Part shown: positions 445-10,180 of the stretch, piece after piece
Position numbering within the stretch: the first letter of the stretch is position 1
How the letters are laid out: every line of letters begins with the position of its first letter
DNA from: a virus
Strand: one strand, 5' to 3'
Length of the DNA stretch: 64,000 nt
IMG/VR virus record: IMGVR_UViG_3300030106_006091
Span: 9,839-73,838 of that record
Program-made: the position numbers and the translations under genes
Notes under the pieces: generated by a model
What the model was told of the DNA's origin: nothing
Database searches by the model: none
Seen by the model: only the letters and a program-made list of their open reading frames with translations

Positions 445-2285
445 GTCTGTGAAATGTTTGTGTCTGCTTTCAACAGACCGTTAGGTATTATAATCTTTGC
501 TGCCTTCTCCATGAGCTCAGTCATCTTGATTGACCATGCATCTGAGACCTCCTCCTTACAAATGGTGTCGATCTGATCATGCACGGTCATCACAATCTTG
601 ACAGAGTCAGACCAGCTCTCTTCTATCTCACGGTGGATGTAGATGAGAGCAAGCTTAGTCATGTCAGCTGATGAGCCTTGGATAGGTGTGTTCTTGGATG
701 CACGTTCGATACTACCAAACTCCTGCATCTTCGACCGGTCATCCCATATCTTGGGGAACCATGTGTCGAACCAACGACGGCGTTTGAATGGTGCAAAGGT
801 AGTGATGTAACCGTTGCGTGTACCAAATGTACCAAGCTTTGTTAGAAAGTCTCGGATGTTTGGGAACTCTGTAAAATACTTCTCTATAAGATCCTCCGCT
901 TCTGCTTTAGATATTTGTAGAGTGTCTGCCAGTTTGAACGGTCCCATGCCGTAGGCGAGTCCGAAATTAATTGCCTTAATCTGTGTGCGTAGCTTCTTCT
1001 TAGCATCAGCGTCCGCACTTCTCCACTTATCTTCGAAGACAAGATCGGCGCATACTCCATGAAGATCCAGTCCTTTCTCAAGCGCTTCCAGCCAAACAGG
1101 GTCTTGTGAGCCATAAGCAATGACGTTTAGTTCCTGTGAAGAATAATCGCTGGACACGAAGACCCAGCCCTCGGGTGCGGTGAAACAATTTCTAAAGGTG
1201 TTATCGCTTGGAATTTGCTGCATGTTTGGTTTAGAGGATGAAACTCGTCCTGTATCCAATATCTGAGAGAAATTTGTATGCACCTTTCCGTCACAGTTGA
1301 CGTAATTGAAGAACTTAGTACCGTACGCATTGGCGAGCTTTGTTCGCTCTTTGTATCTGATGTATTCATCTATCAATGGGTGTTTGTATCTGTGTTTGTT
1401 CAGTTTCTTGCCGTTCACATCCTCGAGGTTAGGCACGAGGTGCTGGAACAGCTCTAGTATTTGCAAAGGGGAACTCCACTTGATGTGAGTCTTGCGTACC
1501 TCATCCATCGCAGCAAACATATCTACCTGTACTGGTACGCGGTAGTGTTGTAGCAATGGATGTGCCAACACAATATCATCAAGCTTCAGCTCCTGTTCGT
1601 ATGCCAGCTTGACATTTTGTTCTGCCATAGCTGTCCACTTGTCCTCATCAATGTTGAGACCTTCGTACTCAATCTCACTGAAGACTTTGACTACGGCATT
1701 CTCAAGACGTGTGACTTGTTGTAGTTCAAGCGAATGTATCTTAGCCAGTTGTTTCTCCCGTATGTCAAGCAGATAAACCACATCGTTCGCCCCATACGTA
1801 ATCTGATCGACGGTAAAAGGTTGACCTTTGAGTCCGATGAATTTGTTCCGCGTCTCTTTATCGAGAGTGTGACCGATATATCTTTCGACACACCTGGAAA
1901 GAGAGTATCCATAGTCTTGCTTACCGCAATTGATAACTCTCTCCGCAAGAAACGTGTCGTATATTTCTTCCAACGATATTCCAGCCCATTTTTTGATGAA
2001 CTTGTAATCGAACTTAGCGTTGTGAAGAACCTTGACGATACTGTTCGATTGTAAGACTTCTTTGAGCGGCGTGATGTCGACGTCTCGTGTGTCGATGACG
2101 TACTGTCTGTCTCTGTCCCCGATTTGGAACATGATGAGTTTCTTGCACGTGAAGTCGAAGCCTTCCGTCTCGGTGTCCACCCCCAGAACTGTCTTGCTTT
2201 CACAATAAGCCTGGCATTCTTGTATCGTCGCTGTCTGGATATCATTGAGAGGACTGTTTGTTCCGATGAATCTTACGCTCTGCAT
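432..2285 (-). CDS. polA: DNA polymerase family A with 3'-5' exonuclease, no 5'-3' nuclease domain
   Basis: Exo motifs DTETE, HNAKFD and YGANDV; polymerase motifs TGRVSSSKPNMQQIP, DYSSQEL (A), KAINFGLAYG (B), NTPIQGSSAD and VHDQ (C). Confidence 0.97.
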   Translation of the reverse strand: MQSVRFIGTNSPLNDIQTATIQECQAYCESKTVLGVDTETEGFDFTCKKLIMFQIGDRDRQYVIDTRDVDITPLKEVLQSNSIVKVLHNAKFDYKFIKKWAGISLEEIYDTFLAERVINCGKQDYGYSLSRCVERYIGHTLDKETRNKFIGLKGQPFTVDQITYGANDVVYLLDIREKQLAKIHSLELQQVTRLENAVVKVFSEIEYEGLNIDEDKWTAMAEQNVKLAYEQELKLDDIVLAHPLLQHYRVPVQVDMFAAMDEVRKTHIKWSSPLQILELFQHLVPNLEDVNGKKLNKHRYKHPLIDEYIRYKERTKLANAYGTKFFNYVNCDGKVHTNFSQILDTGRVSSSKPNMQQIPSDNTFRNCFTAPEGWVFVSSDYSSQELNVIAYGSQDPVWLEALEKGLDLHGVCADLVFEDKWRSADADAKKKLRTQIKAINFGLAYGMGPFKLADTLQISKAEAEDLIEKYFTEFPNIRDFLTKLGTFGTRNGYITTFAPFKRRRWFDTWFPKIWDDRSKMQEFGSIERASKNTPIQGSSADMTKLALIYIHREIEESWSDSVKIVMTVHDQIDTICKEEVSDAWSIKMTELMEKAAKIIIPNGLLKADTNISQTWEK

Positions 2286-2448
2286 CTTGCATAAATATTA
2301 GTATTTGTTTTGCGTCACTGAGTGTGTACTGTTTGCCGAGGAAAAATACTGCATTTCGCTCGTTACGTTCTGATATCTCAATCAGTCGTTTGAGGTCGTC
2401 GCTGCGTCCATCTTGAACCATGGCAGCTATCTGGCCCATTTTGCTCAT
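2242..2448 (-). CDS. Hypothetical protein (68 aa)
   Basis: ATG preceded by an A-rich leader; overlaps the polA start. Confidence 0.65.
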   Translation of the reverse strand: MSKMGQIAAMVQDGRSDDLKRLIEISERNERNAVFFLGKQYTLSDAKQILIFMQDAERKIHRNKQSSQ

Positions 2449-2481
2449 CGTAATGTGTGTTTTAAGGTTGAATAATAATCG

Positions 2482-2599
2482 TATCTCACCAAGGAATCGA
2501 ACCTTGTACAGTAGGGGAGAGGTAGTTTCACTTACCTATCTACTGCAGCGTGTAGCTCAACGAAACGATACGAGCATACTACACTTACCTGCGTGAGAT
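2482..2599 (-). ncRNA. tRNA-like RNA 1 (acceptor stem and T-arm, two long non-canonical helices)
   Basis: ATCTCAC/GTGAGAT acceptor stem, T-arm CAAGG-TTCGATT-CCTTG, internal helices GTGTA..GCTCG/TGAGC..TACAC and TGCAGTAG/CTACTGTA; intergenic. Confidence 0.75.
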
Positions 2600-2601
2600 A
2601 T

Positions 2602-2628
2602 AAAGGGGTGAGCTGTTACACTCACCCC
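2602..2628 (-). terminator. Hairpin or terminator after the 195-aa gene
   Basis: Minus strand GGGGTGAG-TGTAACAG-CTCACCCC-TTT, just after the stop at 2636. Confidence 0.6.
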
Positions 2629-2635
2629 CGTTGTG

Positions 2636-3223
2636 TTACGACAGGATTTCGCCTGTAGCAACGTCCACACTCTGAGAAGCGATGATGCCACCACCTGCGG
2701 TTGCAGGTGCATCAGCCTCCAAGAAGGTGTGCTTTGGTTCTCCGAACACCACGTTGGTGTTAGCGAAGATGTACATACCCTTGTGGGTAATGTAGTCACC
2801 ATCCTTTCCACGACGCTTTGCAGCCGTTTCAAGGTTCTCCATCTGCCACTCGGTTGGCTCAACAGTCTCCGTGATTTGCACACGAAGAGCCTTGCCAAGG
2901 GCTTCAGGGTTGATGACATTGAGGGACTTGACTTCACGTCCCATTTCGTTTGTGGTGTAACCACCAGTCAAATCCACACCCAACAACTCAGATGCATCGA
3001 CAGGCTCCGCTGTCATCCATGCCCGACGTGCTCTCGTAGAAGAGAATCGGTCATCAGATGCATTGAATGCAGCCAACGCATTGTTGTTAGACTGTGAAGC
3101 ACCTTCCAGTACTTCTGCGAACTCGAGCTGGACTTTACCGTTGCTTACGCGACGTGATCCAACCAACAAACACTGACCGGACTTGAGGGTGTCCAGTGAA
3201 CCGCTGTTAAGAATGTTACTCAT
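2636..3223 (-). CDS. Hypothetical protein (195 aa); candidate ssDNA-binding or recombination protein
   Basis: Clean ORF with A-rich leader in the replication arm. Beta-rich pattern and a flexible tail ending VDVATGEILS (a D-x-x-TGE-I type tail seen on phage SSB/recombination proteins). Function is inference. Confidence 0.75.
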   Translation of the reverse strand: MSNILNSGSLDTLKSGQCLLVGSRRVSNGKVQLEFAEVLEGASQSNNNALAAFNASDDRFSSTRARRAWMTAEPVDASELLGVDLTGGYTTNEMGREVKSLNVINPEALGKALRVQITETVEPTEWQMENLETAAKRRGKDGDYITHKGMYIFANTNVVFGEPKHTFLEADAPATAGGGIIASQSVDVATGEILS

Positions 3224-3254
3224 GGTTTTATGAGATTAACATGATTATAATGTT

Positions 3255-3283
3255 GGGACTGTTGATGGTCGTCCCGATACCAT
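3255..3283 (-). promoter_or_regulatory. H-type RNA pseudoknot in the 5' leader of the 195-aa gene
   Basis: Minus strand ATGGT-ATC-GGGAC-G-ACCAT-CAACA-GTCCC: two interleaved perfect 5-bp stems, ending 31 nt before the ATG. Confidence 0.55.
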
Positions 3284-3285
3284 TG

Positions 3286-3351
3286 TGAACAGGAGAGGAT
3301 TCGAACCTCCTAACTGATGCGATTCTTGCCAACCAATGGCACTACCTGTTC
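3286..3351 (-). ncRNA. tRNA-like RNA 2 (no anticodon arm)
   Basis: GAACAGG/CCTGTTC acceptor, D-arm GCCA-TTGGT-TGGC, T-arm GGAGG-TTCGAAT-CCTCT. Only 17 largely unpaired nt lie where the anticodon and variable arms should be. Confidence 0.75.
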
Positions 3352-3359
3352 AATAAAAC

Positions 3360-3463
3360 GATAACACAGCCTCACCGGTTTATCTATTGCCATATATGGT
3401 ACTCCGGGTGCAGTCTAACACGTAGGCCATACTGCGGTATCTATTCGCCCTGGCTGTGTTATC
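3360..3463 (-). ncRNA. Putative multi-branched structured RNA
   Basis: Perfect 12-bp closing stem GATAACACAGCC/GGCTGTGTTATC with inner helices GCAGT/ACTGC and CCGG/CCGG. Strand is inferred from context. Confidence 0.55.
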
Positions 3464-3512
3464 TAACTGATTTATATCGACTCCAGCTGAAGCCGCTGCC
3501 ATGGCAGAGTAG

Positions 3513-3622
3513 TAGTGCAGAAGGAATCGAACCTTCGGGATAATGTCTATAAGATGTAGCTATCTCATCTTCGGAGCTCTTATTGGCTCTACAACGACAA
3601 CCCCCCACGCCAGTGTGCACTA
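3513..3622 (-). ncRNA. tRNA-like RNA 3 (topology like the tmRNA tRNA-like domain)
   Basis: TAGTGCA/TGCACTA acceptor, stemless GG-containing D-loop (CACTGGCGT), long helix GGGG..TGTC/GACA..TCCC capped by hairpins (AAGATG/CATCTT, GAGC/GCTC), T-arm GAAGG-TTCGATT-CCTTC. Confidence 0.72.
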
Positions 3623-3776
3623 AGACGCGCAAAGCAAGGGTCGTCACCCAAGCTTCTAACAGTCACCTATTCACTGCTGGAACGGAATGACAACAGCATT
3701 ACTGCTGCGCTACTTATTCTACACGTTATAGATAAGCAAGTTTACCTAGGGGACGTCTGAGTCCTAGGCAGAGTAT

Positions 3777-4154
3777 TTATTCGTCATCAAACGCTGGTTC
3801 AACTGGCCACCAATTAGAGTGAGCAGGAACATTGTTCCGCTGTCTGATGATTTGCCAGCTACCAGTTGGATACTTGATCTTATATCCTGCTGCATCAAAG
3901 CTTGGATGTTTGATGTCCATCCATACTTTGGTCCAACGTTTGCCATTGTTAATGTCCCACACCGTGATAGGTGATGTGAACACATTACATGTAGCCATTG
4001 ACTCGAGCTCAACACTGTCGAGCGTCATGTCAAACCTACCGACATATCCGTTACCGAAGTCGTCTTCGATGATACCGAACATGCCACAGTTGAATGCTTG
4101 CCCCAACATGGTGGTTGAGACAAGCATTAGAAGTATTACTGAAGTTTCTTTCAT
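3777..4154 (-). CDS. Hypothetical exported protein (125 aa)
   Basis: N-terminal signal-peptide-like MKETSVILLMLVSTTMLGQ; start overlaps the upstream stop. Confidence 0.7.
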   Translation of the reverse strand: MKETSVILLMLVSTTMLGQAFNCGMFGIIEDDFGNGYVGRFDMTLDSVELESMATCNVFTSPITVWDINNGKRWTKVWMDIKHPSFDAAGYKIKYPTGSWQIIRQRNNVPAHSNWWPVEPAFDDE

Positions 4155-4366
4155 GATTCTGTTGAATTACAAATGTGAGACCAGCTGGTGTGCTGCTCCA
4201 TGATTTCTGTTAATTGCTTGATGACCTTCTGTCTGTCTGCAACCTCTTCCATTAGACGTTGACGTTCGTTCTGGGCTGCATTGAGGATTGCCCATCTGTC
4301 CTGCTTCCATGTATTCCAACGATGTACGATTGGGTTGAGGACTTTGTTTTTCTTCTTGAGGTCCAT
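4151..4366 (-). CDS. Hypothetical protein (71 aa)
   Basis: Tightly packed in the operon; coiled-coil-like. Confidence 0.65.
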   Translation of the reverse strand: MDLKKKNKVLNPIVHRWNTWKQDRWAILNAAQNERQRLMEEVADRQKVIKQLTEIMEQHTSWSHICNSTES

Positions 4367-9760: not shown

Positions 9761-10180
9761 ATGAGAGAAATCAACCGCATCATCATCCACTGCTCCGCAA
9801 CGAGAGAGGGACAAGACATAGACGCAGCTACAATCAAGAAGTGGCATACCGAAGACCGAGGATGGTCGGATATCGGGTATCACTATTGTATCAAGCTTGA
9901 CGGTACTTTAGAGGCTGGAAGACCGCTCGACCGTGCAGGGGCACACGTCAAAGGACACAACTCCGATTCAATAGGTATCTGCTACATAGGGGGCGTAGAG
10001 GAAGACGGTAAGACACCGAAGGATACAATGACCCCAGCCCAGGAGCACGCAATGCGTGAGCTGATCTTCTCGCTGCGTATGGTATGGGACAAAGAGTTGA
10101 CCCTACACGGGCACAACGAATATGCCAGCAAAGCATGCCCTAGCTTCAAAGTCAGCGAAAAATTCGCAGATATCTTGTAA
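9761..10180 (+). CDS. N-acetylmuramoyl-L-alanine amidase (T7-lysozyme/Amidase_2 type endolysin)
   Basis: IIIHCSAT, WSDIGYHY, GAHVKGHNSDSIGICYIGG, HGHNEYASKACPSF. True start at MREIN (9761) rather than 9602. Confidence 0.93.
   Translation: MREINRIIIHCSATREGQDIDAATIKKWHTEDRGWSDIGYHYCIKLDGTLEAGRPLDRAGAHVKGHNSDSIGICYIGGVEEDGKTPKDTMTPAQEHAMRELIFSLRMVWDKELTLHGHNEYASKACPSFKVSEKFADIL

What the first reader, a model, noticed from the sequence alone, without database searches (positions are those of the whole stretch)
3286..3351. Anticodon-less mini-tRNA (66 nt)
Acceptor, D-arm and T-arm are intact, but the anticodon arm is replaced by 17 nt with no convincing stem. It resembles mascRNA-type processing modules in concept and cannot decode. 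Its 3' end lies 2 nt from the pseudoknot that begins the leader of the 195-aa gene, so 3' processing would define that mRNA's 5' end.
Basis: partly seen in the sequence, partly recalled or inferred. Interest (0 to 1): 0.7.

Follow-up and report, generated by a model that had tools for sequence, protein, structure and literature searches.

The report
Anticodon-less tRNA mimic in marine phage
A 66-base tRNA-shaped RNA that cannot decode sits two bases before a conserved pseudoknot that opens a phage replication-gene message; it belongs to a previously undescribed family of phage tRNA mimics that probably act as cutting signals for host tRNA-processing enzymes.

Summary
On the minus strand, 3351->3286 folds into a 7-bp acceptor stem, a GG-containing D-like hairpin and a canonical T-arm. 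Only 16-17 unpaired bases stand where the anticodon and variable arms should be. It scores 29.1 bits on Rfam tRNA (cut-off 29); ARAGORN rejects it.

It is not a one-off decayed tRNA. A metagenome scan found ten relatives with the same 5' and 3' tRNA-like parts but centres giving totals of 66 to 121 nt. None is a decodable tRNA. Nine of the ten abut the same leader pseudoknot within 2 nt.

The pseudoknot shows compensatory changes and always precedes a ~195-aa protein next to the DNA polymerase. That protein is only a candidate single-strand DNA-binding protein. The mini form is 89% identical in a phage whose adjacent gene is 63% identical. Other tRNA mimics flank the gene, and about 20 of 80 relatives have one just after its stop codon.

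Best reading (0.45): host RNase P and RNase Z excise the element and so set the mRNA 5' end at the pseudoknot, as plant-mitochondrial t-elements do. No RNA ends were mapped, and phages with 96% identical protein lack the element, so it is not obligatory.

The parts
3286..3351 (-). E1, the 66-nt anticodon-less tRNA mimic. Acceptor 5' 3351-3345; U8 A9 3344-3343; D-like hairpin 3341-3327 (loop UUGGU 3336-3332); unpaired centre 3326-3311; T stem/loop/stem 3310-3306 / 3305-3299 / 3298-3294; acceptor 3' 3293-3287; discriminator A3286.
   Evidence: Rfam tRNA 29.1 bits; fold; ten relatives with the same ends.
3255..3283 (-). H-type pseudoknot that opens the mRNA leader. S1 AUGGU 3283-3279 with ACCAU 3269-3265; S2 GGGAC 3275-3271 with GUCCC 3259-3255; loops of 3, 1 and 5 nt.
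   Evidence: 98.1% of cells paired; 3 pairs with two-sided changes; slid controls 23-61%. Many covarying variants. Found in 26 of 80 relatives against 0.5% of shuffled leaders.
3224..3254 (-). 31-nt A/U-rich leader with no predicted stable structure and repeated CAU, running up to the AUG (3223-3221).
   Evidence: Sequence; leader alignment; constant 24-33 nt spacing in relatives.
2636..3223 (-). 195-aa gene of an uncharacterised phage family (candidate single-strand DNA-binding protein), two genes upstream of DNA polymerase A.
   Evidence: ORF. At least 423 homologues, all unnamed; 486 cluster representatives. No Pfam, PHROG or PDB sequence match. AF2 pLDDT 90.8. Only weak OB-fold-like matches, Z <= 3.9. 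Atlas nearest cluster is named SSB, score 0.92.
2604..2629 (-). G+C-rich hairpin 6 nt after the stop codon, followed by UUUAU and then directly by the next tRNA mimic.
   Evidence: Terminator-like scan; the same hairpin-UUU(A/C)U-mimic arrangement in close relatives.
2482..2599 (-). E3, a 118-nt tRNA mimic just downstream of the gene (acceptor AUCUCAC/GUGAGAU, T-arm CAAGG-UUCGAUU-CCUUG). Its 3' end lies 33 nt before the next ORF's AUG (2448).
   Evidence: A mimic occupies this position in about 20 of 80 relatives, with different but always paired acceptor and T stems.
3512..3622 (-). E2, a 111-nt tRNA mimic (acceptor UAGUGCA/UGCACUA, stemless G-rich D region, long interrupted helix, T-arm).
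   Evidence: Six homologues. A7-U66 changes to G-C. The central hairpin varies from 11 to 33 nt. In L017 its 3' end abuts the pseudoknot directly.

Best explanation
E1 is a selectively maintained tRNA mimic, not a tRNA. It keeps the acceptor/T-arm stack and the GG/T-loop elbow and lacks an anticodon arm. It is the shortest member of a family carried by a group of uncultured marine phages.

Proposed mechanism:
1. E1 is transcribed inside a long minus-strand RNA that also holds other tRNA mimics, the 195-aa gene, the polymerase operon and two real tRNAs.
2. Host RNase P cuts at its 5' end (before G3351).
3. A tRNA 3' endonuclease (RNase Z type) cuts after the discriminator (A3286, or one base later).
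4. This leaves an mRNA whose first structured element, 1-2 nt from the new 5' end, is the pseudoknot.
5. The mimic after the stop codon (E3) would likewise set the 3' end just past a protective hairpin and start the next message.

Shown: the fold, its family, the conserved junction, and the covarying pseudoknot.
Inferred: co-transcription, the two cleavages, and their benefit (a defined, stable, pseudoknot-capped message, as for T4 gene 32).
For: 1. tRNA-like top half. Rfam tRNA score is at the cut-off. The second mini form, in L053, scores 31.6 bits.

2. Family. Ten relatives share the 24-nt 5' part, which was not in the search pattern, and the 3' part. The centre gives total lengths of 66, 93, 104, 108, 112 or 121 nt. 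The D hairpin shows a compensatory swap (GCCA/UGGC to GGCA/UGCC) in L051 and L057.

3. Junction. Nine of the ten have discriminator + C + A/U + AUGG, that is, the pseudoknot. A different mimic (E2) abuts it in L017.

4. Constraint. E1 is 89% identical between the window and L053. The adjacent gene is 63% identical, the leader 69%, and the upstream DNA 46%.

5. Positional mimics at the gene's 3' side in about 20 of 80 unbiased relatives, with covarying stems. Distant ones keep a canonical D-arm but close the anticodon arm with 4-9 nt loops. Finder specificity: 32 sense hits, 0 antisense, 0.05 in shuffles.

6. The phage's real tRNAs (Arg-UCU, and Met-CAU in relatives) lie in the same gene array. 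The one readable here (tRNA-Arg) does not encode CCA, like E1. The host's tRNA end-processing must therefore act on this transcript.

7. No sigma-70-like site in 2200-3900 and no TAnnTTTG on the minus strand between 2286 and 4030. Genes are tightly packed or overlapping on this strand.

8. Precedent. Plant-mitochondrial t-elements are cut by RNase P and RNase Z to make mRNA 5' and 3' ends (PMC1920247). T4 gene 32 mRNA is cut by RNase E at -71, 4 nt before its pseudoknot at -67, and is the most stable T4 message (PMC3014915).

9. Weak hint. Two metatranscriptome contigs from one study cover 2651/2669-3267 and stop inside the pseudoknot with no loose end, while DNA contigs run on.
Against: - No transcript ends, phosphorylation state or cleavage were observed. 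Contigs cannot show RNA ends.
- The element is absent from phages with 96% and 79% identical protein and the same pseudoknot (L001, L002, L003), where the flanks are joined almost exactly at the element's borders. The gene can therefore be expressed without it.
- A pure cutting signal does not explain two things. The 11-nt centre AAGAAUCGCAU is identical in the two mini forms. The centre differs completely between strains whose flanking gene is about 99% identical (X8).
- The base after the discriminator is C in most mimics (CAA 18, CUA 8, CCA 3 of 40). From general knowledge, C74 may weaken RNase Z.
- The host and its RNases are unknown.
Confidence: 0.45

Rival explanations
1. The released small RNA is itself the product. 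It would be a stable tRNA mimic that titrates or misleads a host factor that reads the tRNA top half (for example a CCA-adding enzyme, an elongation factor, or a tRNA-directed defence nuclease or toxin). Alternatively it is a natural tRNA scaffold that stabilises a variable 'cargo' hairpin. Cutting next to the pseudoknot would then be a by-product.
For: - The centre is hypervariable even between near-identical strains, while the arms are nearly invariant.
- A similar internal hairpin (GUGUAGU..GCUCGUA..) occurs in mimics with unrelated acceptor stems: E3 of the window and E2 of L012 and L003. This suggests exchangeable modules.
- The mini centre is conserved between the window and L053.
- The element is gained or lost as a unit.
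Against: - The mini forms (66 nt here; 57 nt in L061, L065 and L066) carry almost no cargo.
- The tight, recurrent junction with the pseudoknot, and the fixed place of E3 after the stop codon, are not explained by a free-standing RNA.
- No target was identified.
Confidence: 0.25
2. It is a decaying or selfish remnant: a phage tRNA gene that lost its anticodon arm, or a small cassette spread by recombination, with no role for the phage.
For: - Presence/absence polymorphism among close relatives, with borders at the element's ends.
- Marginal tRNA score and a non-canonical D-arm.
- Mosaic, recombining intergenic region.
Against: - E1 is far better conserved than its surroundings (89% against 63% and 46%).
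- The stems stay perfectly paired in all eleven members, and a compensatory change occurs in the D hairpin.
- Non-decoding mimics are kept at the same positions across relatives down to about 50% protein identity.
- No canonical tRNA ancestor is seen at this site.
Confidence: 0.13
3. It acts as DNA, not RNA: a recombination hot spot, an attachment-site fragment of a host tRNA gene, or part of a replication origin in the replication module.
For: - Variant contigs break exactly at the T-arm border (3309).
- It lies in a 550-bp non-coding stretch beside replication genes.
Against: - Strand-specific signals: a G-U pair in the T stem, and all 32 mimics on the sense strand with none antisense.
- It has both halves of a tRNA, not just a 3' part.
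- Its 21-nt T-arm/acceptor is absent from about 186,000 species genomes.
- The break at 3309 is simply the border between the conserved arm and the variable centre.
Confidence: 0.05
4. It is a working but bizarre decoding tRNA.
For: Rfam score just over the cut-off.
Against: - There is no anticodon stem. Only 10 nt stand in place of the 17-nt arm.
- ARAGORN finds nothing, even with relaxed settings, except spurious intron models.
- Relatives replace the centre with unrelated hairpins.
Confidence: 0.01

Closest known systems
t-elements of plant mitochondria (Hanic-Joyce 1990; Forner et al. 2007, PMC1920247)
   Same: Non-decoding tRNA-like folds built around the GGTTCRANYCC T-loop motif and an acceptor stem. 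They are embedded in long transcripts, lie directly upstream or downstream of mRNAs, and are cut by RNase Z and RNase P so that mRNA 5' and 3' ends coincide with the element's ends.
   Different: Here the setting is a bacteriophage and the host enzymes are bacterial. The elements form sequence families with a hypervariable centre. One junction is fixed to a regulatory pseudoknot. Cleavage has not been shown here.
mascRNA / MALAT1 and MEN-beta tRNA-like 3' modules, and murine gammaherpesvirus 68 tRNA-miRNA units (from general knowledge)
   Same: A small tRNA mimic (mascRNA is 61 nt) that cannot decode. It serves as an RNase P / RNase Z site that separates it from a neighbouring functional RNA.
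   Different: Those are eukaryotic nuclear systems. mascRNA defines the 3' end of the upstream RNA, whereas E1 would define the 5' end of a downstream bacterial-type mRNA. There is no sequence relationship.
T4 gene 32 mRNA leader (pseudoknot + A/U-rich operator + RNase E cut at -71)
   Same: A 5'-proximal H-type pseudoknot followed by an unstructured A/U-rich stretch up to the start codon of a replication-module gene. The pseudoknot is exposed by an endonucleolytic cut a few bases upstream (-71 cut and -67 pseudoknot in T4; predicted -62 cut and -60 pseudoknot here).
   Different: The cutting signal would be a tRNA mimic rather than an RNase E site. The protein shows no detectable similarity to gp32, and its ssDNA binding is unproven. 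The phage is unrelated to T4 (its polymerase A is about 30% identical to crAss-like phages).
tmRNA tRNA-like domain
   Same: An acceptor/T-arm stack with a reduced D region and no anticodon. The sister element E2 has this connectivity.
   Different: No G3-U70 pair, no tag reading frame, 66-121 nt instead of about 350 nt, and no match to Rfam tmRNA above noise.

Membership tests
Canonical tRNA (Rfam RF00005) | 7-bp acceptor stem plus 5-bp T stem with a T-psi-C-type 7-nt loop | tested here: met
   GAACAGG/CCUGUUC; GGAGG-UUCGAAU-CCUCU
Canonical tRNA (Rfam RF00005) | Score at or above the curated gathering threshold | tested here: met
   29.1 against 29 bits, so marginal. It was missed by the default-filter scan of the whole window.
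Canonical tRNA (Rfam RF00005) | Anticodon arm: 5-bp stem and 7-nt loop with U33 and an anticodon | tested here: not met
   10 nt (GAAUCGCAUC) replace the 17-nt arm. ARAGORN makes no call.
Canonical tRNA (Rfam RF00005) | Canonical 4-bp D stem (10-13 with 22-25) | tested here: not met
   3 of 4 pairs are non-standard in the model's register. A shifted 5-bp hairpin with the GG loop exists instead.
tRNA-like processing modules (t-elements / mascRNA type) | Non-decoding tRNA-like fold that keeps the acceptor/T-arm stack | tested here: met
tRNA-like processing modules (t-elements / mascRNA type) | Element borders coincide with the borders of neighbouring functional RNAs | tested here: met
   The 3' end is 2 nt from the pseudoknot in 10 of 11 family members (window plus 9 of 10 relatives). 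E3 lies 5 nt after the post-stop hairpin and 33 nt before the next AUG.
tRNA-like processing modules (t-elements / mascRNA type) | Mapped RNA ends at the element's borders | tested here: inconclusive
   Only assembled RNA contigs of one study, ending at 3267. Raw reads were not available.
tRNA-like processing modules (t-elements / mascRNA type) | Cleavage by RNase P and RNase Z | not testable with these tools
   Needs enzyme assays or in vivo end mapping.
tmRNA tRNA-like domain | G3-U70 alanine identity pair, tag ORF, pseudoknot ring | tested here: not met
   Position 3-70 is A-U. There is no ORF in 66 nt. No Rfam tmRNA match at this place.
Attachment-site fragment of a host tRNA gene | 3' part identical to a host tRNA gene | tested here: not met
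   The 21-nt T-arm/acceptor has no exact match in one genome each of about 186,000 species. The element also has its own 5' half.
T4 gene 32-type autoregulatory leader (for the adjoining pseudoknot) | 5' H-type pseudoknot plus an unstructured A/U-rich stretch reaching the start codon | tested here: met
T4 gene 32-type autoregulatory leader (for the adjoining pseudoknot) | The downstream gene encodes an ssDNA-binding protein that binds its own leader | tested here: inconclusive
   No family match. OB-fold proteins, including SSB, PriB and PrgE, match only at Z 2.5-3.9. The Atlas nearest cluster is named SSB at 0.92. Binding was not tested.

The most novel reading that the evidence does not exclude
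These phages carry a natural 'tRNA scaffold' system. A nearly invariant tRNA top half, recognised and trimmed by host tRNA enzymes, displays an exchangeable and rapidly diversifying central RNA cassette. The cassette would be a family of phage small RNAs in an arms race with the host. The 66-nt and 57-nt forms would be empty scaffolds. The same modules would double as punctuation for a gene-32-like, pseudoknot-controlled replication message.
Probability: 0.15. Interest if true: 0.85.

Novelty: new variant of a known kind. Interest (0 to 1): 0.62.

Why it matters
tRNA-shaped cutting signals are established in organelles, in mammalian nuclei and in one herpesvirus. I found no description of them in bacteriophages in three full-text searches.

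If confirmed, this would show three things:
- A widespread group of uncultured marine phages (hundreds of protein-family members in 70-88 kb contigs) uses host RNase P and RNase Z to carve mRNAs out of long transcripts.
- It would give a second, independent example of a leader pseudoknot on a replication-gene message. The T4 review calls gene 32 possibly the only viral case (PMC3014915).
- It would warn annotators that weak or odd tRNA calls in phage genomes ('tRNA-???' with 2- or 4-nt anticodons) can be conserved functional mimics rather than pseudogenes.

The strain-level turnover of the centre is unexplained and may point to a further function.

Tried and rejected
- Intron-containing tRNA. 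ARAGORN with introns and an 80% threshold built a 'tRNA-Gln' from 3719 to 3285 with a 349-nt intron, and two similar models. Rejected: it appears only at the lax threshold, and all relatives carry their own adjacent 5' acceptor strand.
- Exact-pattern scans of IMG/VR with the 25-, 23- and 16-nt parts of E1, and with a D-hairpin..T-loop pattern, found nothing related. The 30 hits to the 16-mer were chance. Only the metagenome scan found relatives.
- blastn of 2600-4200 and tblastn of the 195-aa protein against 50,697 GenBank phages: no match.
- Rfam at permissive thresholds on 2250-2660 and 3100-3900: nothing besides tRNA for E1. E2 and E3 are not recognised by any family.
- Promoter scans (sigma-70 type and the Bacteroidota TAnnTTTG motif) found nothing near the element. 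This cannot exclude a phage-specific promoter.
- Protein function: Pfam, PHROGs, PDB sequence profiles and Foldseek against PDB gave nothing significant. The first, shallower model gave Z < 3.
- RNA contigs do not cover E1, E2 or E3. This is no evidence of absence, because such libraries lose small RNAs.
- One viral-collection scan failed on the server side and was repeated.

Full report
**What is there**

The window is part of a 73.8-kb uncultured viral record. Runs that hold near-identical sequence are marine metagenomes. Its DNA polymerase A is about 30% identical to those of crAss-like phages and is not close to any GenBank phage.

Genes around the finding run on the minus strand in a tightly packed array. 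The order is: small ORFs (5232->3777), a 553-nt non-coding stretch, a 195-aa gene (3223->2636), a 68-aa ORF, polymerase A, an 84-aa ORF, tRNA-Arg(UCU) and a second tRNA. In relatives that second tRNA is tRNA-Met(CAU).

The reported element is on this strand, from 3351 to 3286.

**The observation**

- Infernal aligns the 66 nt to the whole Rfam tRNA model at 29.1 bits, against a cut-off of 29.
- The acceptor stem (7 bp), discriminator A and T-arm (UUCGAAU loop) are canonical.
- The D region forms a 5-bp hairpin with a UUGGU loop, shifted one base from the canonical register.
- 16 unpaired bases replace the anticodon and variable arms.
- ARAGORN does not accept it.
- Two bases after the discriminator, an H-type pseudoknot begins (3283-3255). 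A 31-nt A/U-rich stretch and the AUG follow.

So the description is correct, apart from the D-arm being only D-like.

**It belongs to a family**

None of nine viral loci with a homologue of the 195-aa gene had the element. Exact scans of IMG/VR also failed.

A metagenome scan with 23 nt of the T-arm and 3' acceptor returned ten loci:

- All ten also share the 24-nt 5' part (acceptor strand plus D hairpin), which was not in the query.
- Between the two parts lie unrelated sequences, giving totals of 66, 93, 104, 108, 112 and 121 nt.
- Two loci have a compensatory swap in the D hairpin.
- None is called a tRNA by ARAGORN. Only the second 66-nt form (L053) reaches the Rfam cut-off.
- Nine of the ten are followed, after the discriminator plus two bases, by the pseudoknot.

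Between the window and L053 the element is 89% identical. The adjacent gene is 63% identical, the leader 69%, and the upstream DNA 46%.

Conversely, phages with 96% and 79% identical protein lack it, and their flanks are joined at the element's borders. The element is therefore a discrete, conserved but facultative module.

DNA contigs from other samples share the gene at about 99% and the T-arm and acceptor, but diverge exactly where the variable centre starts.

**The surroundings**

A strict finder for 'T-arm followed directly by a paired acceptor strand' gives four hits in the window, all on the minus strand: E2 (3622-3512), E1, E3 (2599-2482) and tRNA-Arg. In 268 kb of related loci it gives 32 sense hits and no antisense hits, against 0.05 in shuffles.

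- **E2.** It is conserved in six loci with an A-U to G-C change in the acceptor stem and an 11-33 nt variable central hairpin. In L017 it, rather than E1, abuts the pseudoknot.
- **E3.** A mimic at this position, about 30-40 nt after the stop codon, is present in about 20 of 80 unbiased relatives. Its acceptor and T stems differ in sequence but are always paired.
- **Distant relatives.** There the element has a textbook D-arm but an anticodon arm closed by a 4-9 nt loop. ARAGORN labels these 'tRNA-???'.
- **57-nt mimics.** Even shorter forms occur in three loci.

Loss of decoding with retention of the tRNA top half is thus a stable state in this phage group.

**The pseudoknot and the gene**

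On 15 distinct leaders, 98% of cells pair and three pairs show two-sided changes. Slid controls give 23-61%. Further variants occur among the 80 loci, for example GAAGACG/UGUCUUC and GCUAGU/ACUAGC. A G+C-filtered finder detects a pseudoknot in 26 of 80 leaders, against 0.5% of shuffled leaders.

Each locus has one such leader. It always precedes a 191-199-aa protein of two subfamilies.

The protein family is large and unnamed and has no Pfam, PHROG or PDB sequence match. A confident model (pLDDT 90.8) matches OB-fold proteins, including SSB, PriB, PrgE and a telomere-end binder, only at Z 2.5-3.9. The language-model Atlas puts a cluster named SSB nearest, at 0.92. 'Candidate SSB' is a lead, about even odds.

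The layout parallels T4 gene 32: pseudoknot at -67, an A/U-rich operator, an RNase E cut at -71, and an exceptionally stable mRNA (PMC3014915).

**How it most likely works**

RNase P and RNase Z recognise the acceptor/T-arm stack and the elbow, not the anticodon arm (established knowledge). In plant mitochondria, non-canonical tRNA-like t-elements are cut by these enzymes to form mRNA 5' and 3' ends (PMC1920247).

Several observations here fit the same mechanism:

- Exactly those parts are conserved, and the rest is free to vary.
- The element borders coincide with the pseudoknot, with a post-stop hairpin, and with the next leader.
- Real tRNAs lie on the same strand of the array. The one readable in the window (tRNA-Arg) lacks an encoded CCA, like E1.
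- No recognisable promoter lies between the mimics and the gene.
- The only RNA evidence is that two metatranscriptome contigs of one study cover 2651/2669-3267 and end inside the pseudoknot without a loose end. This is compatible with a 5' end near 3285 but is weak.

I therefore favour excision by host tRNA-processing enzymes, which sets the mRNA 5' end at the pseudoknot (0.45).

The main rival (0.25) is that the released RNA itself is the point, as a decoy or as a scaffold for variable cargo. That would better explain the strain-level turnover of the centre and the identical 11-nt centre of the two mini forms.

A neutral remnant (0.13) fits poorly with the conservation. A DNA-level role (0.05) fits poorly with the strand bias, the G-U pair and the absence of the sequence from bacterial genomes.

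**Novelty**

Three full-text searches found no account of tRNA-like processing modules in phages. That is not proof of absence.

I class the finding as a new variant of a known kind. It works like t-elements and mascRNA, but in a phage. It forms a sequence family with a hypervariable centre, and it is coupled to a gene-32-like leader.

The comparative evidence given here is new.

Noticed in passing
window 3224-3283 (-) and leaders of L001-L138: The leader pseudoknot plus an A/U-rich tract with CAU repeated about every 10 nt is specific to the ~195-aa gene. There is one per locus, and it covaries across relatives down to about 46% protein identity. It would be a second viral case of a gene-32-type leader if the protein is an SSB.
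   Followed up: partly
window 3512-3622 (-); L003 2726-2840, L004 2621-2707, L011, L012, L017: E2 is a tRNA mimic with a stemless G-rich D region (GGCGUGGGGGGUUGUC invariant in six loci) and a long interrupted helix. Its tip varies from 11 to 33 nt. This is tmRNA-TLD-like connectivity without a tag frame.
   Followed up: partly
window 2482-2599 (-); L059-L102 about 30-40 nt after the stop codon: A tRNA mimic is kept at a fixed place after the 195-aa gene in about 20 of 80 relatives. Distant ones have a perfect D-arm (UAGCUCAACUGGUAGAGCA) but a 6-7 bp 'anticodon' stem closed by 4-9 nt. ARAGORN reports these as tRNA-??? with 2- or 4-nt anticodons.
   Followed up: partly
L061 1006-1062, L065 1105-1161, L066 912-968: 57-nt mimics, shorter than the finding: acceptor, GCC-UGGU-GGC hairpin, 15 nt, T-arm. 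The same AGUUAAG motif stands before the T stem as in the E1 family.
   Followed up: no
window 2560-2590 (-) vs L012 about 10020-10060 and L003 about 2760-2800: A similar internal hairpin (GUGUAGU.(G)CUCGUA...GAGCUACAC) sits inside mimics that have unrelated acceptor stems (E3 here, E2 elsewhere). It looks as if central modules are exchanged between scaffolds.
   Followed up: no
window 3356-3463 (-); L003 2842-2935: A closed, multibranched ~104-nt RNA (terminal stem ACAGCC../..GGCUGU) lies between E2 and E1. It is 84% identical in L003, where it, not a mimic, abuts the pseudoknot.
   Followed up: partly
window 3711-3750 (-); L007 2350-2389: A 40-nt block (..AACTTGCTTATCTATAACGTGTAGAATAAGTA) is 100% identical in a phage whose 195-aa protein is only 52% identical. 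It is followed by hairpins with compensatory changes. It may be a phage-specific promoter or regulatory site heading the small-RNA island, and it occurs once in the window.
   Followed up: partly
window 3280-3540, runs X8 and X13: Population variants: contigs about 99% identical over the gene diverge at 3309 (start of the variable centre). One joins E2 to the E1 T-arm through only 76 nt. Another joins the E1 5' half to different downstream sequence. The sequences of these inserts were not available.
   Followed up: partly
all 40 distinct mimics (window and loci): The three bases after the discriminator are CAA (18), CUA (8) or CCA (3). Position 74 is therefore nearly always C and position 76 is A. 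The base before the 5' end is U or A and never G.
   Followed up: no
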